A stretch of 64,000 nucleotides of DNA, taken from positions 80,910,001 through 80,974,000 of the forward strand of contig OZ024740.1 of NCBI GenBank assembly GCA_964016885.1. The letters run 5' to 3'. The notes under the pieces are model-generated. The model saw only the letters and a list, made by a program, of their open reading frames with translations. It was not told where the DNA came from and ran no database searches. Within the stretch, counting starts at the first letter, position 1. Each line of letters begins with the position of its first letter. The DNA comes from Eledone cirrhosa. Lineage: Eukaryota. Made by a program: the position numbers and the translations under genes. Positions 6,955-58,468 of this stretch are shown here, piece by piece.

Positions 6955-7155
6955 AATTATATTTCGAACCCGATAAGCAAAGTTTGAAATTGAAATAGAA
7001 ATATATGCTTCGCCTTAATATTGACTAAATAATATAGTCTTAGAATAAGGGCGATACCGATCTTTTTCCGTTCAGTTGGTGTATATTCCCATTAGTAGAA
7101 TATATTAATTAGTCAATATTAAGGCGAGGCTTCTATTTCTATCTCAATATATAAT

Positions 7156-7234
<79 letters not shown>

Positions 7235-7239
7235 CAATA

Positions 7240-9122: not shown

Positions 9123-9257
9123 ATAATAATTAACTCCGTACTCGCACCACCAACTACACTAACGAAGACGGGTGAGCTGCATTACGTTGAGTACTCTCCA
9201 TAATATTACATCGAGATTGACCATACAGAATGACCAGTGATGAACCAACAAACCTAA

Positions 9258-9376
<119 letters not shown>

Positions 9377-10074
9377 TGTGTGTGTGTGTTATGGGGTTTA
9401 GAACCCTGTAAAAAATAGAAAAGGATGTACGTCAATACTCATCTTTTTCCATTTCTTAGAGGGTTCTATATAAACACTAAATAAAGTCTATTTGAATATA
9501 CAAATTCTATTCAAATTGACTTTATTTTTCTAGGCCTTCAGATTCGAACCTAACGTGCCTCATTGCACTAGTTAAACCTGTGTGCAGACTTTAACGACTT
9601 TACTAATTATTCATACTCACACCTTAATACGGCCTCATTTACACTGAGTTGACTAATCCTACTTATGTTAATTCCTTTTAAATAATAACATAAAACTTTT
9701 TACGTAGCTGGTGGAAGTCATTAGTTAGAGAAGAAACGTTACACTAGCACCGGTAATTACCTCCCTTAGCATACTAATCTCTTCCCACCGTGTTTTGTAC
9801 TTAACCATGTATATTTAATTTGCACTGTGATGTAAAATTATTATTTTACCCGAATAGGATATATAATTAAAACTTTGCCTTAATATCTGCTTCAGGCGAG
9901 CCCCATTTGGCAAAACATGTGTAAGAGCTTTATAAAGATATGATTTAACGGTTTGTAACTCTTTCATTAATTATTTTGCCTATATATTCCTAACGATCGA
10001 CTTTCGTCAAATCGGACCGAGGAAACAGTGTTTCCATTGGTCTTTCCAATTGCTAATACTATCTATCGGTCGCA

Positions 10075-25870: not shown

Positions 25871-26615
25871 GAAACCATTATTTACTGGTCTTGTGCCTAT
25901 ATAAGAAACCATTATTTACTGTGGATTGGCAGTATCGGTAGAGGATCGGACGCCATGCTTTGACGCATAGAGTTACGGCCCTTGCCATACTGAGTTCAAA
26001 TCCCGCCGAGATTAACTTTGCCTTTCATCCTTAATGGGTCGATAAAATAAAGTACCAGTAATGTACTGGGTAATTGCTGGCCTTGTGCCAAAAGTAGAAA
26101 CAATTATTTACTGGTCTTGTGCCTATATAAGAAACCATTATTTACTGGTCTTGTGCCTATATAAGAAACCATTATTTGCTGACCTTGTGCCTATATAAGA
26201 AACCATTATTTACTGGCCTTGTGCCTATATGAGAAACCATTATTTACTGGTCTTGTGCCTATATAAGAAACCATTATTTACTGGTCTTGTGCCTATATAA
26301 GAAACCATTATTTGCTGACCTTGTGCCTATATAAGAAACCATTATTTACTGGCCTTGTGCCTATATGAGAAACCATTATTTACTGGTCTTGTGCCTATAT
26401 AAGAAACCATTATTTACTGGTCTTGTGCCTATATGAGAAACCATTATTTACTGGTCTTGTGCCTATATAAGAAACCATTATTTACTGGTCTTGTGCCTAT
26501 ATGAGAAACAATTATTTATTGGCCTTGTGCCTATATAAGAAACCATTATTTACTAGTCTTGTGCCTATATGAGAAACCATTATTTATTGGCCTTGTGCCT
26601 ATATAAGAAACAATT
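25853..26615 (+). repeat. 34-bp minisatellite derived from the SINE 3' tail
   Basis: Unit tactggtcttgtgcctatataagaaaccattatt with period 34 and ~15 copies after 26102. It matches the SINE end gctggccttgtgcc..agaaacaattatt. Confidence 0.9.
25921..26102 (+). mobile_element. SINE inserted within the 34-bp minisatellite
   Basis: Full head and body, flanked by attatttactg on both sides. Confidence 0.8.
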
Positions 26616-26629
26616 AGACTTACACAGCA

Positions 26630-29065: not shown

Positions 29066-32000
29066 AAAGTAAAAGTACGGGTCGGCGGCGGAACCGCCTA
29101 GCCGGCGGATTGGATTACTTTCCGCCGTCTACACGGGGCCTCCCCGAAGGAAGCTAGTTTTGGGCGTGTTGTTGTCGCGTCGACCAAGCTAGACCACGCC
29201 GCCGTTCGGGCGTCGTCATCGGCTGGATTCCCCTGCAGCCACACGGGTCGGAGGCGGACAACTGGACACGCCTTAACGGCGGAACACACATCGGAGGCGG
29301 AGGGCGGGCGTTAACGTGCAGGCGGGGCGAACGAGTTCTGGACGGCATGTCGTTCGAGGCGGAGACATCCAACATCTCATAGGGTAAGCCGGCACGTACC
29401 CGTCTTGAAAACGGAATATTCACGACTCGGAACGGGTAGTACCCGGAATCGTTTTCTTCGAGCTCGTCCGATCAAGCTTACCCTATATAATAGACAGGAC
29501 CCACTGACCGCGTCGCAAACGCCGTTCGTGTTCCCAGCTGGCGTTTCGCAACCCTACGGGTCGGCGGCGGATCCGCCTCGATGGTGGGTTGCGTACTTTC
29601 TCGCAATCGAAGCGGGAAGGCGTGGACGAATAAAGGAACGTTTGGCGGGTTCGAGGCGGAAGACGGAAGGCGTCGTGTCGCGTCGCGTCACTTCGCCTCG
29701 CCTCGCGTATACACGCCGTCTTGCCGCCTGTCTTTCCCCGGCAGCTACTCGTAAAAGTACGGGTCGGCGGCGGAACCGCCTAGCCGGCGGATTGGTTTTA
29801 TTCCGCCGTCTACACGGGGCCTCCCCGAAGGAAGCTAGTGGGCGGCGTGTTGTCGTCGCGTCGACCAAGCTACATCACGCCGCCGTTCGGGCGTCGTCAT
29901 CGGCTGGATTCCCCTGCAGCCACACGGGTCGGAGGCGGCCATCTGGGCACGCCTTAACGGCGGAACACGCATCGGAGGCGGAGGGCGGGCGTTAACGTGC
30001 AGGCGGGGTGGACGAGTTCTAGACGGCATGTCGTTCGAGGCGGAGACAGCGGACATCGCATAGGGTAAGCCGGCACGTACCCGTCGTGAAAACGGAATAT
30101 TCACAACTCGCAACGGGTAGCACCCGGAATCGTTTTCTTCGAGCTCGTCCGATCAAGCTTACCCTATATAATAGACAGGACTCCCTGGCCGCGTCGCAAA
30201 CGCCGTAGCCGTTCGTATTCCCCGCTGGCGTTTCGCAACCCTACGGGTCGGCGGCGGATCCGCCTCGATGGCGGGTTGCATACTTTCTCGCGATCGAAGC
30301 GGGAAGGCGTGGACGAATAAAGGAACGTTTGCCGGGTTCGAGGCGGAAGACGGAAGGCGTTGTGTCGCGTTGCGTTACTTCGCCTCGCGTCTCGTATACA
30401 CGCCGTCTTGCCGCCTGTCTTTCCCGACAGCTACTCGTAAAAGTACGGGTCGGCGGCGGAACCGCCTAGCCGGCGGATTGGATTACTTTCCGCCGTCTAC
30501 ACGGGGCCTCCCCGAAGGAAGCTAGTTTTGGGCGTGTTGTTGTCGCGTCGACCAAGCTAGACCACGCCGCCATTCGGGCGTCGTCATCGGCTGGATTCCC
30601 CTGCAGCCACACGGGTCGGAGGCGGACAACTGGGCACGCCTTAACGGCGGAACACACATCGGAGGCGGAGGGCGGGCGTTAACGTGCAGGCGGGGCGAAC
30701 GAGTTCTGGACGGCATGTCGTTCGAGGCGGAGACATCCAACATCTCATAGGGTAAGCCGGCACGTACCCGTCTTGAAAACGGAATATTCACGACTCGGAA
30801 CGGGTAGTACCCTGAATCGTTTTCTTCGAGCTCGTCCGATCAAGCTTACCCTATATAATAGACAGGACCCACTGACCGCGTCGCAAACGCCGTTCGTATT
30901 CCCAGCTGGCATTTCGCAACCCTACGGGACGGCGGCGGATCCGCCTCGACGGCGGGTTGCGTACTTTCTCACGATCGAAGCGGGAAGGCGTGGACGAATA
31001 AAGGAACGTTTGCGGGGTTCTAGGTGGAAGACGGAAGGCGTCGTGTCGCGTCGAGTCACTTCGCCTTGCGTCGCGTATACACGCCGTCTTTGCCGCCTGT
31101 CTTTCCCGGCAGCTACTCGTAAAAGTACGGGTCGGCGGCGGATTGGTTTTATTCCGCCGTATACACGGGGCCTCCCCGAAGGAAGCTAGTGGGTGGCGTG
31201 TTGTCGTCGCGTTGACCAAGCTACACCACGCCGCCGTTCGGGCGTCGTCATCGGCTGGATTCCCCTGCAGCCACACGGGTCGGAGGCGGCCATCTGGGCA
31301 CGCCTTAACGGCGGAACACGCATCGGAGGCGGAGGGCGGGCGTTACCGTGCAGGCGGGGCGGACGAATAAGGGAACGTTTGCCGGGTTACAGGCAAAAGA
31401 CGGAAGGCGTCATGTCGCGCCGCGTTACTTCGCCTCGCGTCGTGTATACACGCCGTCTTGCCGCCTGTCTTTCCCAGCAGCTACTCGTAAAAGTACGGGT
31501 CGGCGGCGGAACCGCCTAGCCGGCGGATTGGTTTTATTCCGCCGTCTACACGGGGCCTCCCCGAAGGAAGCTAGTGGGCGGCGTGTTGTCGTCGCGTCGA
31601 CCAAGCTACATCACGCCGCCGTTCGGGCGTCGTCATCGGCTGGATTCCCCTGCAGCCACACGGGTCGGAGGCGGCCATCTGGGCACGCCTTAACGGCGGA
31701 ACACGCATCGGAGGCGGAGGGCGGGCGTTAACGTGCAGGCGGGGTGGACGAGTTCTAGACGGCATGTCGTTCGAGGCGGAGACAGCGGACATCGCATAGG
31801 GTAAGCCGGCACGTACCCGTCGTGAAAACGGAATATTCACAACTCGCAACGGGTAGCACCCGGAATCGTTTTCTTCGAGCTCGTCCGATCAAGCTTACCC
31901 TATATAATAGACAGGACTCCCTGGCCGCGTCGCAAACGCCGTAGCCGTTCGTATTCCCCGCTGGCGTTTCGCAACCCTACGGGTCGGCGGCGGATCCGCC

Positions 32001-33270
32001 TCGATGGCGGGTTGCATACTTTCTCGCGATCGAAGCGGGAAGGCGTGGACGAATAAAGGACCGTTTGCCGGGTTCGAGGCGGAAGACGGAAGGCGTTGTG
32101 TCGCGTTGCGTTACTTCGCCTCGCGTCTCGTATACACGCCGTCTTGCCGCCTGTCTTTCCCGACAGCTACTCGTAAAAGTACGGGTCGGCGGCGGAACCG
32201 CCTAGCCGGCGGATTGGATTACTTTCCGCCGTCTACACGGGGCCTCCCCGAAGGAAGCTAGTTTTGGGCGTGTTGTTGTCGCGTCGACCAAGCTAGACCA
32301 CGCCGCCATTCGGGCGTCGTCATCGGCTGGATTCCCCTGCAGCCACACGGGTCGGAGGCGGACAACTGGGCACGCCTTAACGGCGGAACACACATCGGAG
32401 GCGGAGGGCGGGCGTTAACGTGCAGGCGGGGCGAACGAGTTCTGGACGGCATGTCGTTCGAGGCGGAGACATCCAACATCTCATAGGGTAAGCCGGCACG
32501 TACCCGTCTTGAAAACGGAATATTCACGACTCGGAACGGGTAGTACCCTGAATCGTTTTCTTCGAGCTCGTCCGATCAAGCTTACCCTATATAATAGACA
32601 GGACCCACTGACCGCGTCGCAAACGCCGTTCGTATTCCCAGCTGGCATTTCGCAACCCTACGGGACGGCGGCGGATCCGCCTCGACGGCGGGTTGCGTAC
32701 TTTCTCACGATCGAAGCGGGAAGGCGTGGACGAATAAAGGAACGTTTGCGGGGTTCTAGGTGGAAGACGGAAGGCGTCGTGTCGCGTCGAGTCACTTCGC
32801 CTTGCGTCGCGTATACACGCCGTCTTTGCCGCCTGTCTTTCCCGGCAGCTACTCGTAAAAGTACGGGTCGGCGGCGGATTGGTTTTATTCCGCCGTATAC
32901 ACGGGGCCTCCCCGAAGGAAGCTAGTGGGTGGCGTGTTGTCGTCGCGTTGACCAAGCTACACCACGCCGCCGTTCGGGCGTCGTCATCGGCTGGATTCCC
33001 CTGCAGCCACACGGGTCGGAGGCGGCCATCTGGGCACGCCTTAACGGCGGAACACGCATCGGAGGCGGAGGGCGGGCGTTAACGTGCAGGCGGGGCGGAC
33101 GAATAAGGGAACGTTTGCCGGGTTACAGGCAAAAGACGGAAGGCGTCATGTCGCGCCGCGTTACTTCGCCTCGCGTCGTGTATACACGCCGTCTTGCCGC
33201 CTGTCTTTCCCAGCAGCTACTCGTAAAAGTACGGGTCGGCGGCGGAACAGCCTAGCCGGCGGATTATAAT
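29066..33270 (-). repeat. rDNA intergenic spacer: ~680-bp GC-rich subrepeats with spacer promoters; 1736-bp higher-order repeat
   Basis: Identical ORF texts are offset by 1736 (29835/31571, 30466/32202, 30773/32509). The units share the gene-promoter sequence. Confidence 0.88.
29461..29500 (-). promoter_or_regulatory. Pol I spacer promoter copy (TATATAGGG; others at ~30162, 30849, 31898, 32585)
   Basis: agctcgtccga....ttaccctatataatagacaggac matches the sequence at 45131-45170, upstream of the 5'ETS. Confidence 0.7.
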
Positions 33271-33283
33271 AATTTCCGCCGTC

Positions 33284-33830
33284 TACACGTAAAACATAAC
33301 TTGGAAGACGGACGACGGATGGGCGGCTTGTATCACATACAGACACACACAGAAGCTGCGTATACGTAAAACATAACTTGGAAGACGGACGACGGATGGG
33401 CGGCTTGTATCACATACAGACACACACACACACACAAGCTGCGTACACGTAAAACATAACTTGGAAGACGGACGACGGATGGGCGGATTGTATCACATAC
33501 AGACACACACACAAGCTGCGTACACGTAAAACATAACTTGGAAGACGGTCGACGGATGGGCGGCTTGTATCACATACAGACACACACACAAGCTGCGAAC
33601 ACGTAAAACATAACTTGGAAGACGGTCGACGGATGGGCGGCTTGTATCACATACAGACGCACACACAAGCTGCGAACACGTAAAACATATCTTGTATGAC
33701 GGACGACGGACGACGGATGGGCGGCTTTTATCACATACAGACACACACACAAGCTGTGTACACGTAAAACATAACTTCAAAGACGGACGACGGATCGGCG
33801 GTGACGTGTAACACACAGAGATACGCAAAA
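33284..33830. repeat. ~65-bp IGS subrepeats (about 8 copies) downstream of 28S
   Basis: cacgtaaaacataacttggaagacggacgacggatgggcggcttgtatcacatacagacacacacaagctgcg repeated. Confidence 0.85.
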
Positions 33831-34276
33831 CTAACCAACTCGGAAGGCGGATCGGCGTCACTCAAATGAAGGCTGTGTCGCATTTACCGTGAACTCTCTC
33901 TTTTTTCGATGCTAATCGACTTTGAGGGTCGTTGGCGCAACCTGGCAAACGAGCGAGCGAGTGAAATCGTCGTAAAAGTTGGCGCGCGCAAAGTGGTTGG
34001 TGGGTAGCAGTAGCAGCGGCGGAACTGTTAAAAGAACGAAGCGAACAATCGGCGGCTAAGGCCCGCACGGACGGAGCGGACTTGTTTGTATGTCGTCGTC
34101 GTCGTTGCTACGCTAACCCGTCGAAAGAAAGCCGCGTCAGTGTTCCAACCCGGTAGCTGCTGCTGCTATCTCTCGTTCGTTCGTTCGTTCGTTCGTTCCT
34201 TCCTTCCTAACTTACTTAGCCGCTTTCGAATTTTTCTTTTCTTTTACCTTTCAGCTGCTGCCTGCCGCCTCGATGG

Positions 34277-34825
34277 GCAGATCGTGTCGTTCGTGAGAAG
34301 AGACTCAATAGATCGCAGTGTGGTAGCTGCTCTACTAAGCACGTCACTCCGAACGGCAAGTCGAGTCGTATACAAGCGATCCTTTTCGTCTCGATCTCTT
34401 TCGACAAATCGAACGGACGACGACGACGACGAATCGTCGTAGTCGTCACAGTATGGCAATTCCGCTGACGCTGCCGCCGACGACGACGCGCACCCCGAAA
34501 AGGGAAGCGACTTCGCCGAACGGACGGCAATCGCCAAACTAAGGCATGCGCCTTAAGAAGTTTGAGACGCTTTCGAAAAACAACTCGGGTCCGGCTACGG
34601 TTCCGGCTTAGAGGCGTTCAGCCGTTATCGCTCAGAGGCAGCCTGGCACCACCGCTCTATCGAGCGCGCGCGCAAACTGTTGCTCTGATCCCGCGGTTCC
34701 TCTCGTACTGGACGGGATAGCCGAAGCCGAGTTGAAGTTGCCGGCGGCGACGCCGACCGCAGCCGCCTTCGAGAAGGTGGCTGCAGCCGCCACCGCCGCC
34801 GCCTACACGCAATGCATCGGTAGGA

Positions 34826-34872
<47 letters not shown>

Positions 34873-34914
34873 GTTAGTGGGTGAACAATCCAACGCTTTG
34901 CGAATTCTGCTTCG

Positions 34915-34952
<38 letters not shown>

Positions 34953-35639
34953 GAGTCGCTGCGAACGCTTGGCCGCTACAAGCCAGTTATCCCTTTGGTA
35001 ACTTTTCTGACACCTCTCGGCGGACGCATAGCTCGCCGCTATTCGTAAAGGTTCGATGGGCCACGCTTTCGCGGTCCGTATTCGTACTGAAAATCGAGAT
35101 CGAGCGAGCTTTTGCCCTTTTGCTCAACGTGTGATTTCCGTCCACGCTGAGCTCGCCTTGGGACACCTGCGTTACCCTTTGATAGACGTACCGCCCCAGT
35201 CAAACTCCCCGACCGACACTGTTCTCGACTAAGGGTCGCGCATCGGCTGCATCGGCGCACAACGTGCGCGCGCGCGACATGCACCGCACGCTTCGCACCA
35301 GATAAATGAACCACCGCTCGGCGACGGCCCCGTCCCTTCTCAATGGAGTGAGCGAAGAAACTACGGAAGTGGCGGTTTTTCATCGATGCAAACGCGCACG
35401 GTACCCGACAGACGGCGAACGCCGCCGCAAATCCGCAAGCGACCTGCAAACGACGCTGCAGCCTGCCGAGAGACGCAAGATTGCTGCCGCCTATGCTACA
35501 CCTACCGTGTGCCCTCACAAAACCGGACTAGAGTCAAGCTTAACAGGGTCTTCTTTCCCCGCCGATCCGTCCAAGCCCGTTCCCTTGGCTGTGGTTTCGA
35601 TAGACAGAAGATAGGGACAGTGGGAATCTCGTTGATCCG

Positions 35640-35679
<40 letters not shown>

Positions 35680-35746
35680 ACCATGTCCGCCGAGAGAGTC
35701 ATAGTTACTCTCGCCGTTTACTCGCGCTTGGTTGAATTTCTTCACT

Positions 35747-35780
<34 letters not shown>

Positions 35781-37729
35781 CGTCTATGTGGCTCGGCCGG
35801 CTACGCGATGCTCTGTTTTAATTAGACAGTCGGATTCCCCCGGTCCGTACCAGTTCCGAGTTGACCGTTCGCCGCCGGCCGAACGCCTGCCGCGCGTCTC
35901 GGCAACCGCCCTCCTCCTCGCGAAGAAGAAAGAAAGAAACTACCGACGCGCCAACGAGCCCGAAGCCGTGTCGCTCCACGGTGTCCCGGGCGTGGAGCCG
36001 TGTTGTTCGCGCCCACTACGCACCGAACGTCGCAAAAAGCGACCGAAACGCCGTTCGCTTACGCCATGCTTGCCTCTCGAAGCCCCCCGTTTTTGTTTTC
36101 GACCGACAAAAACGAAGAAAACGAAGAAAAAAAGACGACGACGACGCGCGAGTCGCCGGCACTGCGACGAACAGTAAGGAAAGAAAAAAAACCGAAAGAA
36201 CAAAACAAAAGCGAGCTGAGCAAAAAAACAAACCGCCCTTACGGGCGACAAGCCTCTCCAGCTGCTGCGCATTCATCCCTCCTCCGCGCAACCAACCCGC
36301 AGCCGCCGCCGCCTTCTTCCTCTCTCTCCTCGCCGCCAACCGAAAGAAGGGCAAGGATAAACGAAACGAACGCAACGAAACGGGCGCAAACCGGCCACCC
36401 GACCGACACTCGAACGTCGAGTCCGAAGCCAATGCTACATCCCCGTACCGGTTCACCGATTCGCGTACAGACGTGCCGCGCGACCGATCCCGAGTTTTTG
36501 GAAAAAAACAGCAAGACGGTCGACAGGCCAAGACACACACGACCCGATCGACCCGGTCCTCGGAGCCAATCCTTCTTCCGAAGGTACGGATCCATTTTGC
36601 CGACTTCCCTTACCTACATTGGCGCTATCGACGAGGGGCTGTACACCTTGGAGACCTGCTGCGGATGGTGGCTACAGACCGACTCGAGAGCTGCGAATCG
36701 TTACGGACCCGGATTTTCCAGGGCCGCCGAGAGCGCACCGGACGCCGCCCAAGACGCGGCGGTCTACAGGTACCATATCCGTATCTCCGGACGAGCCGAT
36801 TCCACGGACGCGGTCCTTTACGAAGAAGAGAGAACTCTTCCCGGGGCTCCCGGCAACGTCTCCGGGCTCGCTTGCGTTGCCGCTGCTTCCCCCGACCGCC
36901 GGCTTCGATGACGCGACGACGCGTTAAATTCCACCGACGGACGAGCACTCTCCGAGTTCGGGTTCGGGAATATTAACCCGATTCCCTTTCGATGCAAGGC
37001 CGGCCGTAACAAAAACAGAGAAGAAAAAACACGTTTTTAATTCTCTTTCTCGACAACCGATCCGGCGACTTTCGTACAAGCTTTCGCCCGCTTCGTAGGA
37101 CCGACTGACCCGTGCTCGACCGCCGTTGGCACGGAACCCTTCTCCACTTCGGTCTTCGAAGGTCTCGTTCGAATATTTGCTACTACCACCGAGATCTGCA
37201 CCCGCGGTCGGCTTCACCCGGGCTCGCGCCCGCGGCTTCCATGCACGCCGCGGCGCCCTCCTACTCGACCAGGCATCGAAGAAAGTTACGTCGTGTCACC
37301 TTTTGTCGCCTATCGCCTGGGCGGTCCGGCATCAGTCGCTCGCTCCAGCGCCATCCATTTTCGGGGCCGGTCGATTCGGCAGGTAAGTTGTTACACACTC
37401 CTGAGCGGATTCCGACTTCCGTGGCCACCGTCCTGCTGTCTATATCGACCGACACCCTTTCGGGGATCTAATGGGCGAAGCGTAGGGCACCTTAGCCGGA
37501 CGTTCGGTTCATCCCACATCACCCGTTCTGCTTACCAAAAGTGGCCAACTTGGCACCGTGCATTCGTCGCCGAGACGGCGGCCGCCTCCGATCGGGAGAG
37601 AGAGCGGCCTGTTTCGCCCGTTCCGAGTTCGAGAGTAGATCGAGGCCGTCAACGTCCCCGGGGCCTCCAGTCGTTCGCTTTACGGGACGGAATTGCGTGT
37701 CGTTTTGTCTGCTGCTGGCGCCAGCTATA

Positions 37730-37763
<34 letters not shown>

Positions 37764-39245
37764 CGGCTCGATTGGTCTTTCGCCCCTACACCCGGTTCCG
37801 ACGATCGATTTGCACGTCAGAGGCGCTTCGGACTTCCACCAGAGTTTCCTCTGGCTTCGTCCCGACCGGGCGTGGATCGCCATCTTTCGGGTCCGCGGCT
37901 GCCTGCTACACCTGAGTCGGAGCGCGCCGCGCCGAAGGCCCGAAAGCCGCCACGCGACGCGCACACCCGACTCGGGAACGATGCTTCGAAACGCCTACGA
38001 CGGCGCGGAAAAAAGAAGAAAAAAAACAACAGCGACACGACCCGAAGGCCCTACCGCATGTCGTCAATTCAACCAGCCCCTAACGCCGCCGTCGACGACG
38101 CGTCACGTTCTCGCTTTCACTTCGCCGTCGGAGTTCGTTAAATTCGATTTCTTTCGCTCCAACGACTCGCAACCGACTGGGACTCCTCGGTCCGTGTTTC
38201 ATGACGGGTCCGGTAGGTTGCCGATGCTCGTCGCAGACCTGCAGAAGCGGACGGCTCGCAATCCTCATCCGCCCAGCGACCCGCTCCCTCCTGCTCCGCA
38301 AAGAGAGCAAAAGAGAAAAAGCAAACGGGGCGAGCGAACGAGGCGGCCGCTTTCTCGAAAGCCGATCAGTCATTTTAAGGATATAAAAAACCGACCTAAG
38401 CATTTACGAACGGCGCTGCAGCTGATAAAGGAACACGCGCGTTTGTCCCGTCCCCGCCTGTTAGCCGTGCCTGGGACGACGGAAATCATAAATGAAAACC
38501 GCCGCCGAGCGACTGGCCCGGTCGAGAGAAGCACTGTTTTCGGAAACCCGCTTCGAAAGCGAACCGGTGAAGGTTCGTTTTCTAGGCGGGACGCCGCTCT
38601 GCGACCTGCGGACACCGCGCGCCATTAAGCCTGACGGGAACGGGTCGCGACGACGGATCGAAGGGGAAGTGCGTCCGATGCCGGCACCCCGCGAATCGTA
38701 ACGCCGGCGAGGCGGTCGGCGGTCGACCCGTCGAAACGAGAGACCGCCGCCGACGCGATCGCCGACGCGATCGCCGACGACGACGACGCCTTAAAACAGC
38801 AGCGGACTGAGTCCCCTAGCGATCGCGGTGAACGGTCCTACCCGTTTAACCCCTGGACGGTTTCACGGTCTCTTGAACTCTCTCTCCAATGTTCTTTTCA
38901 ACTTTCCCTCGCGGTACTTGTCAGCTATCGGACTCGTCCCGGTATTTAGCCTTGGATGGAGCTTACCACCCGCTTTGGGCTGCGTTCCCAAGCAACCCGA
39001 CTCTCGGGCCGAAGAAAGAGACACTGTCGATCGCCGCCGGCTCCGAATGGGCCTAGCCGGGCGAAACGAACGACCGTGTACGACCCTTGCGCCACAGCTC
39101 TCGACGACCTGCTTGCGGACGACGAGATTCAGCGTTGGGCTCCTCCCAGTTCACTCGCCGTTACTAAGGGAATCCCGGTTGGTTTCTTTTCCTCCGCTTA
39201 GCGATATGCTTAAGTTCGGCGGGTAGTCGCGTCCGAGTCGAGGGC
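34277..39245 (-). rRNA. 28S rRNA gene (~5.0 kb, large expansion segments, altered R2 site)
   Basis: 5' acccgccgaacttaagcatat, sarcin-ricin loop agtacgagaggaacc near 34694-34709, PTC segments, and 3' gagcagct..ctgcgatctattga. Ends are approximate. Confidence 0.95.
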
Positions 39246-39871
39246 AGCTATTCGCATACGCCGAATACGCTGAATACGAAGAACGACGACGACGGAAAGG
39301 CAGCGATAAAGAAGAGGCTGGCGATAAAGAAGAGGCGCCAAGGCGGAATGTGTAGAAGGACGAGAGAAATGGGGAAAAAGAGGCGGCATCGAAATCGTTT
39401 CTCGTCGGCCGACACGAACGCTTTGTGTTTTTGGCGACTCGCAGAGCGAACGCCGTGCTTTTAGCGACTCGCAGAGCGTTTTTAGCGAAACGCAGAGCGA
39501 ACGCCGGCCGACGAACAACGACCGCGCCTGTGTTACTGCGTTTCTTTTTACCCTTCTCGTCTTCCCTTCTTCTAAATCTTTCTCTTTCCGTGCGACGATC
39601 TCCGAACGACGAGAAATAAAGAAAAATAACGACCAAAAGTGTTAGTTCTTATTTCAATACGGGAGACGGAGCATTCCGCGACCGACGACTCTCGCTTCTT
39701 CTGCGACTCCCGACTTCCCGCTGTTGCCATGACGCAAAAGAGAAGAGAAAAAGAAAAAAGTGCGCTTCGCTAAGGCGGCAGCGGCGCAATGGCGGATGTT
39801 TCTCTCTTTCTCTCTCACTCTCGTGAGCGGGCGGCGTATGGCGAAACAGCAGACAGCGCAATTGTATCGTG
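39246..39871 (-). other. ITS2
   Basis: Lies between 5.8S and 28S. Confidence 0.85.
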
Positions 39872-40033
39872 ACCGCCTCTCGACCGGACGGGGCCCCGGG
39901 ACGATGGAATCCTGGGGCCGCAATGTGCGTTCGAGGTGTCGAGGTTCACTGAGTCCTGCAATTCGCATCAGTTCACGTGGATAGCCGCGCTCTTCATCGA
40001 CGGACGAGCCGAGTGATCCCCCGTCCAGTGTTT
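39872..40033 (-). rRNA. 5.8S rRNA gene
   Basis: ggatcactcggctcg..cgatgaagagcgc..gaattgcagga..gaacgcacattgcggcc. Confidence 0.93.
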
Positions 40034-40560: not shown

Positions 40561-40618
<58 letters not shown>

Positions 40619-40761
40619 AGCGATCGGGTTCGGTCATCTTCTCCGGGCCATCAGAGAGCGCACCGACGACGGCAACGAACCGACCTGACGGCCGACTCGA
40701 AACGCCGCCGCGCGGCCTGCGAACTCGTCGGCCAGATCCGAGGACCTCACCGGACCGTTCG

Positions 40762-40801
<40 letters not shown>

Positions 40802-41511
40802 GGTGATCGACGCGGGCTGATGACCCGCGCCTACCGGGAATTCCTCGTTCACGGGGTTGGTTCCAGGCCCCGATCCCTATCACGGGAGGGGTTTCAGAGG
40901 TTTCCCGACCCTCTCGGGCCGGGGGAGTGACGCCCGCTGATACCTCCAGTGTAGCGCACGTGCGGCCCCGGACATCTAAGAGCATCACAGACCTGTTATC
41001 TCTCCGCCTCGTGCGGCTTTCTGCCGCCCGTCTCTCTAAGAAGCGCTGCGTTCGCCAACCAACTGGCCCGGACGCGACGACGTGCCGACGCCGGAGCTGT
41101 TCGCGCCGGTCCCCCCCTCCCGAGCCCGAAAAACCGCCCGCCGCCGCCACCAGCGCTGCCTTCATTCCTCCATTCTGCAAGCGAACTCGCGAAAGAAGAA
41201 GACGACGACGACGCGACGACGACGGCAACGGCAACGGAAGCCCGAGCTCGAAGAAAAAAGGAAAAAACCGAACGCAGGACAGCTTACCGACGACGGCTTC
41301 GGCGCCGCCACGCTACCGGAAAAGCACTAATCGACGCGCTAGTTAGCAGGCCGGAGTCTCGTTCGTTATCGGAATCAACCAGACGGATCGCTCCACCAAC
41401 TAAGAACAGCCATGCACCACCACCCACCGAATTGAGAAAGAGTTATCGATCTGTCAATCCTACCGGTGTCCGGACCGGGTGAGTTTCCCGTGTTGAGTCA
41501 AATTAAGCCGC

Positions 41512-41557
<46 letters not shown>

Positions 41558-43412
41558 TGTTTTGCAACCATACTCCCCCCGGAACCGACTATGGTTTCCC
41601 GCGCAGGCTCCCCGCCGGGTCATCGAAGCGAACGCCGGCGGAGCGCCAGTCGGCATCGTTTATGGTCGGAACTACAACGGTATCTGATCGTCTTCGAACC
41701 TCCGACTTTCGCTCTTGATCGAGGAAAACGTGCTTGCCACACGCCGTCGCTGCAGTGCGTCTTGCGACCATCCAAGAATTTCACCTCTAACGTCGCAATA
41801 CGAGTGGCCCCGATCGCTCCCTTCGATCATTGCCTCGTCGTGAACGGAGACCGACGGATGACGCGCAGACGAGGCCATTTTCCATCATTCCATGCTTTTC
41901 GTATGCAAGCCGGTGCGGCTCGGTCTGAGAACTCTAATCTTTTCACAGTGAACGTACCGGCCGCCTCGGACACTCGGTAAAGAGCACCCTCGGAGGAATC
42001 GTGCGGATCAGCGGCGAAACGGAACGACGACGACGACAAACGGAAGCCGCAGGAAAGCGACGCGCCGAGACGACGACGACGAAACCGGTTACGCCGTCGT
42101 GTCCAACCCTGGCGACGAACCTCTCCTTTCGAAAAGAAAAAGGCACGCGCGCAGAGAGAGAAAAACAAAACCGCGAGGTGAACGCGCGACCGCGGCGAGG
42201 TGACGGCACGACGACGTAAGAACCTCTGAAAATCCAAGCGAGACGAACTCCAAGGCCTGACCGGAGCGCGGCGACGAAAACGAGAGGCGAACGGCAACGC
42301 CCGCGGTAAAACAAAGTGCCGTCGTCGCATCGTCCCCGATCGCGCAAAGGAAAATAGGCAAGAAGAAAGCAAGAAGCGAGGCAAGAAGGTAAAAACGCGA
42401 CGTCTGCACCGTGACGCCGAGCGGCGATGCACGCAGAGCTCTGCGGCCCGACCGCGCAGGCACTGGCGAATAGGGCCGGGAGTGCAAACGGACGACCAAA
42501 GTCGACGCGCGGCGCGCGAACGACAACGGCGCCGTCGCCCTGAACGCGCTGACAACGCAGCGCGCTTTCGAGACCCGAATTCCGACTACGAGCTTTTCAA
42601 ACGCAACAATTTTAATATACGCTACCGAAGCTGAAATTACCGCGGCTGCTGGCACCAGACTTACCCTCCGGTCGATCCTCGTTAACGGATTTGAAGTGTA
42701 CTCATTCCGATCGCGGGGCCTCGACAGAGTCCCGCGTCGTTATTTTTCGTCACTACCTCCCCGTGCCGTGAGTGGGTAATTTGCGCGCCTGCTGCCTTCC
42801 TTGGATGTGGTAGCCGTTTCGCATGCTCCCTCTCCGGAATCGAACCCTGATTCCCCGTTACCCGTTGCCACCACGGTCGGCACTTACCGGGCTGTCGACA
42901 GTTGATAGGGCGGACTCGCGGGGGACTCGTCGCGCGAAGGCCAGAAGCGATTCTAAGCCCGTGCGATCGTACTGACAGTTATCCAGAGTCACCAAAGTCG
43001 GATTGATGCGCGACGCCCGCAAGGCACGCAGCGAACTGCGAACGGCGCTGCCGGCATCTGACGCGTCGTCGGTCTCAGTCTAATATTTGCGCCGCGACCA
43101 ATGCGAAGGCCGACCGTGTCGACGCGATCTGTTGGGACCGCGCGGGAAGACGGAACGACGACAGCGACAAACGCTGCGCGCGTTTGTAACCCGACTCCCG
43201 GGAGCGACCTGCGATCGCGGCCTCAGTTGCATGTATTAGCTCTAGAATTGCCACAGTTATCCACTCTCCTCGCGGTGAGAAATACGGTCCCGAGGATTAG
43301 GTCCGGTTCCTGAGCCATTCGCGGTTTCACGATTCGTTTACAGCATGAACTTACACTTGCATGGCTTAAGCTTTGAGACAAGCATGTGACTACTGGCAGG
43401 ATCAACCAGGTA
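40561..43412 (-). rRNA. 18S rRNA gene (2852 nt, greatly expanded variable regions)
   Basis: Starts tacctggttgatcctgccagt, contains gtgccagcagccgcggtaat, and ends aacctgcggaaggatcatta. Confidence 0.97.
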
Positions 43413-45154
43413 TCTTCCGCACGAAATACAAAACGACGACCGAGAACAGAAGCGCATCGTGCCGTCGCCGCTGCCGCCGCTAGGAGGCAAGAGCGGCGGC
43501 GACGGCGGCGGCAGCGAATTTCGTCTCGTCTCGCTGTAGGCGGAAAGAGAAAACGTAACAAAAAAACCCCCAGAAATATCGGCAACCGGTCCACGAGCCG
43601 GTGGGAGGAAGAAACGAAGAGAAAAGAAGAAGGACGCGGCGCTGCGCGTTCGGCGGCATTTACTCTCTCCCAGATCACCTCTCCCAACGACGTCGTCGAC
43701 GAAACGGGCGAATACGAAATCAATCGCCCGCCGACTGCCGGCCAATCGTTTAGTCTTCCTCCTCCTCCTCGTCGGCGGCGATGAAGGAAAAGAAAAGAAA
43801 CAAACGAAAACGAGCTCGCAAGGCGGTTTACAATCCGATGGCATCGCACGAAGCCGCTTTCGGAAGCGTTTCCCTTGGCGTAAGTGCGAGCCGAGGCGTG
43901 ATGCGGCGTCGAAGAAGAGGAGAAGTAGGCGGCGGCGCCCTCCGCTTTCGATTCAACAGCTGCTGTCGCCGTTACTGCGACGGAAAAAGAAATCGGTTCG
44001 ACATGGCGGCGGAATGCGGTCAACGGAAGAGAGTTAGGAAGACGACGACAACGCGAAAAGCGCGGCGTCGCGTAACCTAACGGCTAGGTATGCCGGGGCA
44101 AACTTGGACGCCGACCCGATAAAGGCAGCGGCGCAAGCAGGGACACCAGGACTTGATGCCAGTGTCCCTTCGGGAGGGACGACGCCGCTCTGTTTCATAG
44201 ATATCGCGTCGCCGTTGGCAAAACGAGGGTAGCTACGGCTATACCCAAGCCCGCCGCGGAGGTGGCGACGCAACGCGTGGTCAGCGGCATGACCTGACCG
44301 GGACCACGACGAAAAGCCGAAACCTTCGTCGCAGCAGGAAGAGTATGCGCGTCGTCGCCGTCGTAGATCGTCGTCAAGCGCGGTGCAGGGCATTTAGGCG
44401 GTGCTCCTGCATTAAAATGACGGCTATTACGACGGACGCGTACCTACTGATGTGACGGAAAGGCGGTTCGGAAGGCGGTTAATCGTCGAGGCCGAGGGTC
44501 GGCGAGCGAACGAAAAAAAAAGAGGCGAGGAGGAAGCGACGGCGCGAGGCATTCGGCGAAAAGGTTCCAGACTTTTACGCCGACCGGGCGGGAAGGCGTT
44601 CGTTTTTTGGCGTCAACCGAAGAGTAATTTGCGTTGCTCCAGCAGTAACGAACGTCTTCCATCGTGGGTCCGGTCGGGCGACGGCGGCAGCGGTCTGGAA
44701 AGGCAATTCTTTTGCCGCGACGGAAGCGCAATCGAAAGGCGGATCACGAAATGCGGCTAGCCGTCGAGAGAACGAAAAGGCAAAGGAAAAAAAAAAAGAA
44801 TAGGCGAGGAGAAAGCGGCGCGAGGCGTTCGGTGAAAAGGCTACAGACTTTTACGTCGCCCGGACGGGAAGACGCTCGTTGTTGGCGTCAACCTAGGAGT
44901 AATTTGCGTTGCTCCAGCGGTAACGAACGTCTTCTATCGTGGGTCCGGTCGGGCGATGGCGGCGGCGGTCTGTAAAGGCAATAATTCGTCGATGGCGGCG
45001 GGTACGGGCTGTAACGTGAGGGCGGGTCGTGGACGAGGACGACATCGCATATAGGGTATCCGGACACGCCTAACCGGTAACCTACGCAGTAAACCGAAAG
45101 CTGCAACGGCTAGCACCCTTCCGTTCACTAAGCTCGTCCGACCGAGGTTACCCT
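43413..45154 (-). other. 5' external transcribed spacer (with ~280-bp internal duplication)
   Basis: GC-rich region between the putative start site and 18S. Confidence 0.7.
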
Positions 45155-45200
45155 ATATAATAGACAGGACCCCCTGGCCGAGCTGCATCTTCCGCGATCG
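45131..45200 (-). promoter_or_regulatory. Putative RNA polymerase I gene promoter; start site near 45154
   Basis: Minus strand cctgtctatTATATAGGGtaacc, reiterated five times in the IGS as expected for spacer promoters. Confidence 0.7.
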
Positions 45201-45415
45201 TTGCTAATCCCGTGAGGGCGATCCGCCGGCCACGGGTCGGCTGCGGAACTGCCTAGACGGCGGGTTGGCTTCGGTCCCGCTGTCGATGCGGGACCTAGAA
45301 TGGCTAGAGAGATAGAAGGCGGCGTGTCGTCGGCGAAGCTACACCACTTCTAATATACATAAATATATATACATTTATATATATAGGTATATATATAAAT
45401 GTATATATAGGTATT

Positions 45416-53424: not shown

Positions 53425-56358
53425 TTAATTTACAGATACGTACACAGAGTAGGCCCATTCACTCGGGCCGTTCTTGCTTCTCTCACCCATCTTTATACAA
53501 AATGTTGGGAAGAGAGCACTTCCCTCTCTACTCTGATTTTCCTTTTCAAATGAAATTTGAAAAAAGTCAATCAGGGCATCACCGAAGAGGTAAGTGCTCG
53601 TCTTCAGACCTTTCAAACGTGTCCACCATACTATCTCTTTCTCCAAGGCCACCAGACAGATAAAAACTGCCTGCCCTTCCCGGCTAAAGGAAGAGGGCGG
53701 GGAAATCCTCACGATCGACTCAGATGATAGCCGGATCCGTCCTACACGCGGCAGCAGGTGTTCGACATAAACCCACAAGTCAGCAATTTTCGGACACTGG
53801 ACGAGTGCGTGTAGGACGGTTTCGTCGCCCTGCGCGCGTCTCGGACATGCCCGGCTGACGGCACCTCCATGCCTGTAGAGTTTATCCCGAACTGGCAAGG
53901 CTCCTCGGTAGCACTGCCAGGCCAGAGATTTCTGGAAGTTGTCCATAGGTCCCGGCCCGAAAGTTCTTCCGATGAGATGGGCTAGTTGATTTTCGTCAAC
54001 GCCTAGAGTTTCCCCAAGTACGTCGTCGTTCTTCCCCTCCACTAATCCTCTATAGAACACCGAGGTGGAGTTTCCACCGATCACATTGCCCGATTGGTCG
54101 AGGGCTGTATGCGCCTGAAGACATTCCAGTCTCCAGGCGCTCCCTCTCGGTCTTCGCTTGACCCAGGACTGCAGCTCCGTCAAGCAAACGAGCTGGGGAA
54201 ATACGTGTCTAGCAAACGGCGACCACACCTGATCACCGTCGAGGAAGAAGTGGAGATGTCGTAGCCTGAGATAGCGGGTGTTGACAGCAGATGGCCCACC
54301 TGACCATTGGAGCGCGTCCCTTCCACACAAAGCGAAAGAGCAAACGCTCCGGCGCAGTCAGGCGGAGCTTAGGACATGGTACGACGGTCAGGCGGTAGCA
54401 GATGACAGACCCGATGTACGCGGTAGCCACCTCCGCTCGATCTTTCAGGGATAGCTTCCTCTCCGCCCATTTCTCGGTGAGAGAAGCCACCCTGCTCGTC
54501 ACCTCGTCCCAGTTTTTGTCCGTCTGGAGGTCCGGACCGAAACAGACCCCTAGCAATTTAACCGGTCCGTCCGTCCAGCGTCCGACGACGCTGTTGGACG
54601 GCATGGACCTGCCTCTCAAGGTGCCGAGCTGCAGGCCCACTGACTTTTCCTTGTTGATCATAGTTCCTGTCACCGCTTCGTATTCTCTTAGTGCAGTGCC
54701 GATCGCCTCGATGTGTTTGGCGTTCGACACCACTACGGTGACATCGTCCGCATATGCTGACACGGATCTTCCTAGTTCGCACGGGACGCCCCTCAACGTC
54801 TCCAGTTTGTGCAGTAAAGGCTCGAGAGTCAATACGTACAAGAAGGACGAGAGGGAACATCGTTGGCGGATCGAGTGCACTAAGTTGAACGGTTCCGAAA
54901 GGTGACCGTTTACTCTCACCACAGAGCAGTTGCAGTAGACGTCCGCCAAGAGGCCTTCGAACAAGTCTGGCATCTGTACGTAAAGTTCATAGGGCAGACC
55001 ATCCAAACCAGGCGATTTACCCCTTGTGCAGCCAGTCATTGCCTCTCGTACTTCAGCGGCTGTTATCGGCTTTGCGCAACACTCCGCCTCAGTGGCCGAC
55101 AGCCGCGGCAGTCCGTCGAGGTAGACGCTAAAGTCCATCCTTCGACCCGGCCCACCGCTGCCCCCGAACAGCTGAGCGAAGTGTCGCTGAAAAGCTTCAC
55201 ACATTTGACCGGGATCGAGTAGCATGCACCCGTCGTGGTCCACCAAAGACCGGATCGTGGCTTTGTTTCCACAACGCGCCTCCGCCTTTCGGGCCCATTG
55301 AACTGCGTTCGTCCCCTCGTGTCTGAGAGCACGCACCCTAGCTCTGACAACGCAGCCTTCGTGCTTTGCATTGAAGAATTGGTCAAGGGCCAATTTCGCC
55401 GCAAGCACATCGGTCGCGATGCCTTTGCTAAGCGCCTAGTCTAATTTTCTAACTAGTTCTCCCTCTGCTCTATTTTTTTCTATTGCTAAAGCCTTACTAA
55501 ACCTAATGGATTCTATTCTAATCGCTCTTTTCAGAGTAAACCACCCGTCAACGCCCGCTCAACTAGTTCGCTAATCCGGTCCCTGTAGGCCTTGCGCGCT
55601 GGTAAGGATGCGTTTAGCTTCCAGTAGCCGGGTCCTCGTCTATGAAGCCTATCTAAGTCAAGTATACAGATCACGAATTTGTGGTCCGTGTAGCTGACTA
55701 TCTTGAATTGTGGACAGCCTATGCTAGACCTATCTACTTCCCTACAAAATACTCTATCTAGACATGATCTGGATGACCATATGCGATTTGTCCAAGTCCA
55801 CATTGGCACATTCGGGAAATCCAATCGGTACCTGTCAAACAGTTCAAAACGCCAGAGCAGGTTGGTGAGGCTCTTGCAACATCCACCCCTATCCGCTAAT
55901 CCCACACAGTCCCAGCGTGCATCTAAGATCCCGTTCCAGTCGCCCACTAACACTAAAGAGCGGGACGTTCCAAGAAAGGTCTCCAGACGCCGGAAGAAAT
56001 CAGGCCGCCCTGCTCCTGTCGGGGCATAGACGGCCACTAGCCTGAAAGCTTGCCCGTCTCCGCTGGTCACGTCCAGCACCACCAACTTACCCTCTGAATC
56101 CAGGAAGATGGCCCGTATGGCGAGATCCAAACCTCTCCGAAAAACACAGCAACTCCTCCCCGATCCAGGACGGCTGGGAGATACGTACACATCGTAGCCG
56201 CCGAAGATCACTGCGAAGGCCCGTGCTTCGGAGATTCTGGTCACGCTGATGGCCACTACATCTATGTTTAGTGACCTGAGGTCGTTGAGTAGGTGACCCT
56301 GCTTCCATGACGACCACAAGCCACGCGCATTTATGCTGCCTATTCTGAGTGAGGTCAT
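53425..56358 (-). pseudogene. LINE ORF2 (APE endonuclease, RT, Zn finger) with frameshifts and an internal RT deletion
   Basis: SINARGL, GDWN, TDH and PGYWKLN; KSPGLDGLP, RQ.CSLS and AYADD; CP..ETVLHALVQC. The RT segment between KSPGLDG and RVNG is largely missing. Confidence 0.88.
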
Positions 56359-57053
56359 GTTTAAAATGGAGTGGAAAAGATGGGAAAGACCACTTACCGT
56401 ACTTTTCGTAGAGGAAGGATGGTTTCTCCATCCCTTTTCACTCGATCGTCTGGTGAAGGGACCGTTGAATCGTCCCTTCGGCTGGTCGTCGGCTCTTCTA
56501 TGAGTATGTCCGAATATACTCTCCGGTTGAGAGTCCCTCCTCGGTCTCTGAAATCACCAACTGCGTTGGGGAATTTCGTTTTAATGTTTGTGTATTGTTT
56601 CTGTGCTATTTTTACCAGTCTTATGTTCGTTGGCGTTTTGATTGGTCCTGGTATTATGTAGTCGTGCTGTGAAATGTCTGTGTGTTCAATTATGTAAGTC
56701 ATTAGTTTTTTGTTGTGTGTATTTATTGCCGTGCATTTGGTTTTCTGGGTGTGGGGTGTGGTTCTGCTATTTTTTTGTCGTTGTTGCTGGGTGTGGGTGT
56801 TTTATTGTTGTGTTTGCGATGTTGGTGCTTGTGGTGCTGGTGTTGAAGGTGTTGTTCTTGTTGGCGGTGGGGTTGTCGCCGGTGGTGATGGTGGTGTTAG
56901 TGTGGGTGGTGATGATGTTGGTGGTGTTGCTGCTGTGAGTCTCTTTGCAGTAGCCTTTACCCTTTTTTCATTTCTTTCTTCCCTTTTCGAAGGCGACGAT
57001 GCGCTGCTTCTGCGTGTGTGCCTCTTACGACATTTTGCCATCCCTCTCCCACC

Positions 57054-58468
57054 TCACACTCCATGTTTGATTCTGTGAGGTCGGGGAGGGGTACCAGCTT
57101 CACTCGTTTGCAGTGGAGTCTCTGTTGCAGCTGCAGTTGGTATTGCTGTTGTTGTTAATACTTCCACTGCTGCTGCTGTTCTTGATTTCCGTGGCGTGGG
57201 TATGGGTGCCACAGACCTATCGTTCTTGGTTGCCGCTTGTCCTGTTGCTGGTAGGCGTGGAGCCGGTTTCGGAAGGAGAGGGGTTTTCTCCTTTCTCAGG
57301 GTCTTCTCGTTGCAGAAGGCCCTGAGGTGAGTCTTCAATCCACAGCGAAAGCATTTCGGGCGTTTGCCCTCAACACTTATGGGCAGTTGAGTGCCGTTAT
57401 CGAAGTCTATCACATCCGGGATAGCTTCGATGCACTCCTGGTTGGTTTGGATTAACATCTCAATGGAGGTGCCGACCCAATCTTCTCTTACATTTTTCAG
57501 TACTTGCAGTACAGTTTTTTTGTCCTCGATTCCGACGAGGAAAGACGCGGCCAACCAAGAAGGAGCCATCCCGGGGAGGGGGGGGGACGTGGGTTAGTTT
57601 GCCCCTCACAATTTTTTGCCCGCAGTAGGAGGGCACCAACACCACTTCCTCGCTCCTTAGGGTCACTAAGGATTGAGCCTTTGCCTCCTGGGGTGTGGCA
57701 AAAAGCACGTCTACGGTGGCTATTTCTTGCCTCGGGTGATATTCGTTTTCCGCTGCCACACAGACCCTAAGGCTTTTTGTATTTGAGCCTATGTGGCTCT
57801 TTCAGCCCTACGGGATTTTGTGCTTACTGTACGGTACGTGACCGTACAGTGCTGTTGGGTTTCGAAAATGTTTTCGGTTGCCTTGCAGATTGCTCGGTGT
57901 CCGGTTTTCGTCACCACTTCTTCGCTCCCTGTAATTCCTCATTTGTTATGAGGATGGTTTCCAGGTTCTTTGCAAACGAGATTGCTTTTTCTCTGCTGCT
58001 GTTGTTGTTGTCGTCAGAGCTGCTGTTACTTTTGTTGTTGCTGCAGGTACTACGACTACTGCCGCCGCCGCTGTTGCTGTGGTTGTTGTTGTTGTTGCTG
58101 CTGCTGCTGTTGTTGCTGCTGTTGCTGCTAATGCTGTTGTTGTTTATGCTGCTGCTGATGCTGTTTCGGCTGCTACTGTTGTTCTCCTTGTCACTGTTGC
58201 TGCTGCTGCTGTTATTAAAGCTGCTACTGCTATTATTCATGACGTCAGACGAATGAAATGGGTTTTCGTATTTACCGCACACCTTTTTCGTCATTGTCGT
58301 CGTCGTGGAGAAATGTTCCATGATTTTCACGTGATATTTCTTGACTAGCGTCGCTTGCGAAAGAGAAGGGAGGGAGAGAGACAATCTTCTCTCTGCTGTA
58401 GTGACGATTGAGGAAGAAGAAGACAGAATTAGTGGGAATGACCTATGAAAATTCTTTTTCGTGGCCAT
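57054..58468 (-). pseudogene. LINE ORF1 (gag-like), broken into several frames
   Basis: CCHC knuckle KCFRCGLKTHLRAFC, with an Asn/Ser low-complexity N-terminal part. Confidence 0.7.

What the first reader, a model, noticed from the sequence alone, without database searches (positions are those of the whole stretch)
35670..35705. 13-nt foreign sequence exactly at the R2 retrotransposon target site in 28S
Seen: the sense strand reads GACTCTCT-cggcggacatggt-TAGCCAAATG (insert 35680-35692) instead of the conserved GACTCTCT-TAAGG-TAGCCAAATG. Established: R2 elements insert between AAGG and TAGC, keep the 3' junction precise, and often delete upstream target bases when 5'-truncated. Inference: an extremely truncated R2 insertion or repair scar that probably inactivates this unit next to helix 69. 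Alternatively, if the change is fixed in the species, it would be a remarkable R2-resistant rRNA variant.
Basis: partly seen in the sequence, partly recalled or inferred. Interest (0 to 1): 0.75.

Follow-up and report, generated by a model that had tools for sequence, protein, structure and literature searches.

The report
R2 cut scar in dead rDNA
One stray, decayed copy of the ribosomal RNA gene has 13 foreign letters exactly where the jumping gene R2 cuts; it is likely the repair scar of a failed R2 insertion, likely patched in part with a backwards copy of nearby ribosomal sequence, and likely not a working R2-proof ribosomal RNA.

Summary
Observation confirmed: 13 nt (35680-35692, minus strand) replace TAAGG at the R2 nick. 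It is not fixed: the scar occurs once in the assembly, the normal site once, and 26 of 28 downstream target halves follow an R2 or short R2-derived element. The unit is a solitary, decayed rDNA orphan: 159 private substitutions, 8 of them plus one deletion at positions shared with E. coli. The scar is the only multi-base indel in 1,624 core nt, and its 5-nt loss resembles local R2 5' junctions (17 of 21 lose 3-6 nt), so an aborted R2 event is likely. It is not a plain R2 3' end: 0 of 26 local ends share more than 1 terminal base; one extinct lineage matches 8 of 13 (P about 0.05). Best source: 8 nt plus a 4-nt microhomology match the opposite strand of 28S 660 nt downstream (P 0.5-2.3% before multiple testing); another junction here holds 84 nt of antisense 28S. 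No reads were laid, so assembly error stays open. Earlier scan notes describe this genome's R2 parasites, none this scar.

The parts
35680..35692 (-). 13-nt patch that replaces TAAGG at the R2 target site (net +8 nt)
   Evidence: single copy in G000 with up to 1 mismatch
35693..35700 (-). Upstream half of the R2 target (3' arm of helix 69); its last 4 nt (35693-35696) are the putative microhomology
35670..35679 (-). Intact downstream half of the R2 target, starting at the first-strand nick position
35014..35025 (+). Candidate donor: 12-nt exact match (4 flank nt + first 8 insert nt) on the strand opposite to the 28S sense, about 660 nt downstream, in a domain V hairpin
   Evidence: inferred donor, P 0.5-2.3% against nulls
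34277..39246 (-). Decayed 28S gene; core lesions include substitutions at 35052, 34995, 34977 and a 1-nt deletion between 34954 and 34955
   Evidence: 2221 bits against 2392 for the uninterrupted C12 copy
39874..40032 (-). 5.8S gene of the same unit (102.9 bits against 117.8)
40561..43412 (-). 18S gene of the same unit (1311.9 bits against 1378.1)
43413..45350 (-). Upstream spacer (ETS and promoter side), 84-90% like the DNA upstream of the C12 unit
29069..33901 (-). Intergenic-spacer repeats, 70-89% like those beside the C12 unit; beyond them AT-rich non-rDNA

Best explanation
The 13 nt are likely the repair scar of an R2 retrotransposon cut that ended without a recognisable element, in a solitary rDNA copy that is likely dead. 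Shown: the patch ends at the R2 nick, 5 target bases are lost upstream, the genome is full of R2 and R2-derived inserts at this site, the patch is single-copy, and the unit carries many other lesions. Inferred (about 0.7): an R2 protein nicked the site, copying stalled at once, and the break was closed by microhomology-type joining. Inferred with less support (about even odds within this reading): the nicked strand folded back on its own strand about 660 nt away, copied 8 nt of 28S, and annealed to the upstream end through a 4-nt microhomology, which puts antisense 28S on the sense strand; the last 5 nt would be untemplated or from an unidentified source. Consequence (inferred): the target is destroyed, so this copy would be immune to later R2 insertion, and helix 70 would be broken.
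For: R2 pressure: 26 of 28 downstream target halves (up to 3 mismatches) are preceded by element 3' ends, 1 is normal, 1 is the scar; 4 of 5 ORFs scanned carry RVT_1, 3 also a C2H2 finger below the curated cut-off or near it. Position: only multi-base indel in 1,624 core nt. Geometry: 13 of 21 readable 5' junctions lack 4 target nt and 17 of 21 lack 3-6; the scar lacks 5 (several are array siblings, so not independent). Private and old: 224 substitutions in 7,957 rRNA nt against the C12 unit, 159 private; 8 of 1,087 E. coli-identical positions privately changed (0.74%) against 0-0.28% in array-type units. Donor: 12-nt exact match, P 0.005-0.023 over four nulls, 0.007-0.013 when anchored at a junction. 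Precedent in the same genome: the 5' junction of L063 holds 84 nt of antisense 28S at 100% identity plus a duplicated piece of R2 5' UTR. Precedent in print: snap-back junctions copy cDNA or, less often, nearby rDNA in antisense (PMC11371274, passages); target deletions, microhomologies and untemplated bases at R2 5' junctions (PMC2718515, PMC3774820, passages).
Against: One event, no reads laid. Five of 13 nt have no source. I tested four kinds of source, so the donor P is about 0.02-0.09 after correction. Two other sources reach P about 0.05 each: the 3' end of a decayed R2 lineage (8 of 13 in register) and the first 5 nt of local R2 5' ends. Private changes are rarer at E. coli-identical positions than elsewhere (0.74% against 2.21%; P 0.0035), so part of the divergence may date from a time when the unit or its ancestors worked; R2-inserted orphans show the same skew. 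PRINT work found no other TPRT-mediated insertions at the target site (PMC11371274) and a review gives indels below 0.1% (PMC13586686), so element-free scars should be rare. The order of scar and decay cannot be told.
Confidence: 0.7

Rival explanations
1. The 13 nt are a remnant of R2 itself: the extreme 3' tip of an extinct lineage copied by target-primed reverse transcription, or what is left after an inserted element was almost wholly deleted.
For: The single-copy decayed lineage at G000:C3 (L041/L066; R2 by tblastn) ends in 13 nt that are 8 of 13 identical in register, P 0.049-0.065; its flanks are about as diverged (3.4%) as the window's unit (2.8%). The insert's first 5 nt occur in local R2 5' ends, P about 0.05.
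Against: 0 of 26 ends share more than 1 terminal base; three more ends seen do not match. Five differences in 13 nt exceed 3% decay. No sister copy of that 3' tail (1 match; the pattern found only these two loci above background). An 11-of-13 match inside the endonuclease-coding region is at chance level (P 0.32).
Confidence: 0.13
2. Assembly or consensus error at one locus.
For: Single copy; no sequencing run held half of the stretch's words (0 of 24 listed); no reads were laid.
Against: The change is a clean 5-for-13 replacement in non-repetitive sequence, lies at the R2 nick, and the flanks align without gaps for over 300 nt on either side. The unit's other differences look like decay (88 of 159 private changes are transitions, 42 at CpG).
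Confidence: 0.08
3. An R2-independent break in a decaying rDNA orphan, repaired with a templated patch, that happens to fall at the R2 site.
For: The unit has 47 indels in its rRNA genes, and an earlier scan note describes patchworks of rDNA scraps elsewhere in this genome (e1-10311072, not checked here).
Against: 43 of the 47 gap rows lie outside the E. coli-alignable core; of the 4 inside, two belong to the scar and two are 1-nt deletions. A random hit within a few nt of the nick has odds of a few in a thousand (my estimate from 1,624 nt).
Confidence: 0.06
4. A working, R2-resistant 28S variant.
For: The unit is complete, with spacer and promoter-side DNA; the helix 69 stem is kept, with one G-U pair turned to A-U; core positions are less changed than expansion segments; R2 load is extreme, so selection for escape is conceivable.
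Against: Single copy; normal site present; replaced bases equal U1926-G1930, in or beside helix 70, described as highly conserved and needed for subunit contact (PMC4174444, passages; G1930 highly conserved, PMC4665369); further lesions in domain V including a 1-nt deletion in a helix. Five of the six cephalopod R2 entries shown end their upstream flank in normal target sequence up to the junction or were cut off.
Confidence: 0.03

Closest known systems
Aberrant R2 5' junctions: target deletions, microhomologies, untemplated bases (Stage and Eickbush 2009, PMC2718515; PMC3774820; passages read)
   Same: Precise downstream boundary at the nick, loss of a few upstream target bases, added bases of unclear origin.
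   Different: Those junctions flank an R2 body; here no R2 body can be recognised.
Snap-back junctions of R2-based PRINT insertions (PMC11371274, passages read)
   Same: A cDNA 3' end primes on cDNA or nearby rDNA and leaves antisense sequence joined to upstream rDNA, the orientation seen for 8 of the 13 nt and for the 84-nt piece in L063.
   Different: Described in cultured human cells with a transgene attached; here natural, heritable, element-free, and only 8 nt, so the assignment is statistical.
Octopod R2 elements, R2-1_ECi and relatives (PMC13188248, Table S2 rows seen)
   Same: The ORF of L062 has the same first 60 residues and the same length (995 aa) as R2-1_ECi; such elements are the likely source of the cut.
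   Different: Neither an 11-nt nor a 9-nt piece of the insert occurs in that table (0 hits).
R2 SIDEs of Drosophila (PMC3414825; abstract, outline and section 8 read)
   Same: The genome has 1.16-1.38 kb non-coding inserts with R2-type ends at this site (13 measured).
   Different: The 13-nt patch has neither a ribozyme head nor an R2 3' tail, so it is not a SIDE.
Templated insertions of polymerase-theta-type end joining (recalled; polymerase theta named for truncated R2 products in PMC13586686, passage read)
   Same: Short patch, microhomology at the join, nearby template in inverted orientation.
   Different: The donor is about 660 nt away; the enzyme cannot be told from sequence.

Membership tests
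5'-truncated R2 insertion | 3' boundary at the R2 first-strand nick | tested here: met
   same boundary as 26 local elements
5'-truncated R2 insertion | Insert equals the 3' end of an R2 of the same genome | tested here: not met
   0 of 26 ends share more than 1 terminal base; best 8 of 13 in register, P about 0.05
5'-truncated R2 insertion | Upstream target loss typical of R2 5' junctions | tested here: met
   5 nt lost; 17 of 21 local junctions lose 3-6
5'-truncated R2 insertion | R2 with RT present in the genome | tested here: met
   RVT_1 in 4 of 5 ORFs scanned; 1,214-aa open frame in L059
R2 SIDE | R2 5' ribozyme joined to R2 3' UTR | tested here: not met
   13 nt only; 5-nt likeness to 5' ends at P about 0.05, no 3' tail
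R2 SIDE | Several copies with varied junctions | tested here: not met
   single copy
Snap-back or templated repair patch | Insert matches nearby DNA in inverted orientation | tested here: inconclusive
   8 of 13 nt, P 0.005-0.023 before correction
Snap-back or templated repair patch | Microhomology at the join | tested here: met
   4 nt shared by donor and upstream flank
Snap-back or templated repair patch | Dependence on R2 endonuclease or on a given polymerase | not testable with these tools
   needs an experiment
rDNA pseudogene (orphan unit) | Outside a tandem array | tested here: met
   only 28S target on contig C1; non-rDNA beyond 29069 and 45350
rDNA pseudogene (orphan unit) | Private lesions at conserved core positions | tested here: met
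   8 substitutions and 1 deletion at E. coli-identical positions besides the scar
rDNA pseudogene (orphan unit) | Not found in mature rRNA | not tested
   no reads laid; no run held half of the words
Fixed R2-resistant 28S allele | Present in all or most rDNA units | tested here: not met
   1 copy; normal site present; the assembly may collapse the main arrays

The most novel reading that the evidence does not exclude
A natural, heritable, element-free R2 footprint: R2 cut its target, the nicked strand snapped back and copied antisense 28S, and the join erased the target, leaving the only dispersed rDNA copy in this assembly that R2 can no longer enter. If so, R2-rich genomes carry a hidden class of short target-site scars that can be counted in raw reads and that record failed integrations, the same by-product that R2-based gene insertion must avoid.
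Probability: 0.35. Interest if true: 0.45.

Novelty: new variant of a known kind. Interest (0 to 1): 0.27.

Why it matters
Little by itself: one lesion in one likely dead gene copy. Its use is as a natural example of what a failed R2 integration leaves behind. Aborted events are mostly invisible, because scarred units are lost from arrays and surveys look for inserted elements. An orphan unit preserves one. With the 84-nt antisense piece at another junction it suggests that snap-back repair, described in engineered R2 insertions, also acts in a germline. The exciting reading, a fixed R2-proof rRNA, is not borne out.

Tried and rejected
(1) Fixed variant: rejected. (2) Known local R2 3' end: rejected for 26 of 26 ends by shared suffix. 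(3) Internal R2 sequence as template: 11 of 13 match in the endonuclease-coding region of several copies, but 32% (sense) to 46% (both strands) of shuffles do as well. (4) Template jump to a small RNA or repeat: the 13-mer occurs at 9 other places, against 4 for the reversed control; none is in an Rfam family (0 matches) or joined to 28S. (5) A 9-nt match at window 54372-54380: expected by chance in 64 kb, my estimate. (6) The last 3 nt as an inverted copy of one family's 3' tail: too short to test. (7) A sister unit that shares the window's private changes and still holds an element: none; the closest share only older variants (at most 34 of 98 sites, L062). (8) Public runs: 22 of 24 listed hold part of the stretch, best share 0.33, none half; not used as evidence. 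(9) Folding the scar region gave no informative alternative structure. (10) Paper searches listed no report of an element-free natural scar at the R2 site or of a target-site-resistant 28S; the library lacks most subscription journals, so this is weak.

Full report
Observation. The window holds one rDNA unit on the minus strand: 18S 40561-43412, 5.8S 39874-40032, 28S 34277-39246. At 35680-35692 thirteen bases stand where TAAGG is expected. The genome's own uninterrupted site occurs once, on C12. The lost bases align to U1926-G1930 of an E. coli 23S gene, just after helix 69.

Not fixed. The scar's 3' junction occurs once in 3.0 Gb with up to one mismatch. A pattern that allows 3-33 nt between the two target halves finds only the scar and the normal site. 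Of 28 downstream halves with up to 3 mismatches, 26 follow an element's 3' end. The assembly may have collapsed the main arrays, so these counts describe assembled units, not the cell's rDNA.

R2 background. Long inserts of 3.8-6.0 kb have open frames of 583-1,214 aa; 4 of 5 ORFs scanned hit RVT_1. The ORF of L062 has the first 60 residues and length of the published R2-1_ECi. Thirteen inserts of 1.16-1.38 kb have no frame above 174 aa and carry R2-type ends, like Drosophila SIDEs (PMC3414825). An earlier scan note reports the same family (e1-8667571).

The unit is a decayed orphan. It is the only 28S target on its contig and is bounded by spacer remnants at 29069-33901 and up to 45350. Against the C12 unit it has 224 substitutions in 7,957 rRNA nt; 159 are seen in no other locus compared, 88 of them transitions and 42 at CpG. 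Array-type units differ by 0.1-0.8%. Rfam scores are lower for all three genes. Besides the scar, 8 substitutions and one deletion hit positions identical in E. coli, several in domain V. Against this reading: private changes are about three times rarer at such positions than outside the core (0.74% against 2.21%). R2-inserted orphans show a like skew (L062 1.15 against 2.41; L068 3.26 against 8.29; L097 0.61 against 1.04), though two do not (L076, L063), so I read it as older rDNA variants plus later decay, not as present function.

Why R2. The scar is the only indel above 1 nt in 1,624 core nt. It ends at the nick used by the 26 local elements. It lacks 5 upstream target nt; of 21 readable 5' junctions, 13 lack 4 and 17 lack 3-6. 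Four further upstream halves (L091, L092, L093, and the second site in L068) were left out of that count because no element start could be read; several of the 21 are array siblings. Such deletions with added bases are typical of R2 5' junctions (PMC2718515, PMC3774820; passages).

Where the 13 nt came from. Four sources were tested. (a) R2 3' ends: none of 26 shares more than one terminal base. One decayed, single-copy lineage (L041/L066) is 8 of 13 identical in register, P 0.049-0.065. (b) R2 5' ends: the first 5 nt occur there, P 0.049-0.057. (c) R2 interior: 11 of 13, P 0.32. (d) rDNA: the last 4 flank nt plus the first 8 insert nt match 35014-35025 exactly on the opposite strand; P 0.005-0.023, 0.007-0.013 when anchored. 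Source (d) is best and brings a microhomology, but after four tests it is only suggestive, and 5 nt stay unexplained. It has a precedent in this genome: the 5' junction of L063 joins upstream 28S, a repeated piece of R2 5' UTR, 84 nt of antisense 28S at 100% identity, and the R2 start. It has one in print: snap-back junctions in which a cDNA end copies cDNA or nearby rDNA (PMC11371274, passages). The orientation fits: the nicked strand carries the donor's complement about 660 nt behind its end, so folding back gives antisense 28S on the sense strand (inference).

Mechanism. Shown: position, boundaries, single copy, R2 load, decay. Inferred: R2 nick, stalled copying, microhomology join (0.7). 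Inferred more weakly: snap-back copying of 28S (about half of that). Predicted and untested: loss of R2 recognition, broken helix 70 (its conservation: PMC4174444, PMC4665369; passages). Whether the scar came before or after the unit left the array is unknown.

Limits. No reads were laid over the site, and no listed run held half of the stretch's words, so an assembly error (0.08) and expression remain open.

Papers. PMC3414825: abstract, outline, section 8. PMC13188248: abstract, outline, passages, and matching rows of supplementary file 7; files 13-16 were not searched. PMC11371274, PMC3774820, PMC2718515, PMC4174444, PMC4665369, PMC13586686 and 10.1101/2025.08.22.671877: passages only; their supplements were not seen and may list target-site indels. 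McIntyre et al. 2025 was seen only as a reference line. Eight searches listed no description of such a natural scar. Polymerase-theta patch features are recalled.

Verdict. Real, R2-linked, private and most likely without function. A new variant of known R2 junction errors; interest 0.27.

Noticed in passing
L063 (G000:C4:236745000-236752000), 5521-5604: R2 5' junction built as a patchwork: 16 target nt lost, a repeated piece of R2 5' UTR, 84 nt of antisense 28S from about 1.1 kb upstream at 100% identity, then the R2 start. A clear natural snap-back-type junction.
   Followed up: partly
L072-L076, L097-L104 (G000 C2, C3, C4, C6, C12, C25): SIDE-like non-coding inserts of 1.16-1.38 kb with R2-type ends fill the target in 13 measured units, some nearly identical to the uninterrupted unit (0.1-0.3%), so recently spread.
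   Followed up: partly
G000: Only 1 of 28 assembled downstream target halves belongs to a normal uninterrupted 28S site; either the arrays are collapsed or R2 load is extreme.
   Followed up: partly
L059 (G000:C2:166886000-166894000), 1764-5405: R2 with a 1,214-aa open frame and almost unchanged flanks (3 differences in 2,970 nt), a candidate recent copy; its 5' junction repeats downstream 28S sequence and its 3' UTR has internal repeats.
   Followed up: partly
L066 (G000:C3:72170500-72179900), about 3840-7904: Single-copy decayed R2 lineage with a 1-kb 3' UTR that ends in a hairpin and AGG, unlike the other local families.
   Followed up: partly
L060-L061, L070, L094, L109, L121, L124, L125, L128, L132 (G000 C7:29.28-29.30 Mb, C18:15.04-15.08 Mb): Several R2 copies of different families lie one after another, suggesting tandem or nested insertion at the regenerated target.
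   Followed up: no
L067 (G000:C6:50977500-50986900), 7903-9401: Downstream of an element's 3' junction the 28S fragment turns into a tandem repeat of about 70 nt of 28S sequence.
   Followed up: no
L058, L070, L099, L104 5' junctions: Tandem repeats of 10-19 nt of upstream 28S at R2 or SIDE 5' junctions, which may mark a ribozyme cut inside the 28S leader.
   Followed up: no
L073 (G000:C12:25037000-25046900) and L068 (G000:C9:421000-430500): Inverted and rearranged rDNA blocks next to the target site.
   Followed up: no
window 40561-43412 and 34277-39246: 18S of about 2,850 nt and 28S of about 4,970 nt, both with very long G+C-rich expansion segments shared with the other units.
   Followed up: no
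window 2678-6861 and 26077-26616: Tandem arrays with units of about 480 nt and 34 nt.
   Followed up: no
window 54001-58000: A G+C-richer stretch (0.50-0.54) in otherwise AT-rich DNA, with no match to the rDNA loci compared; not identified.
   Followed up: no
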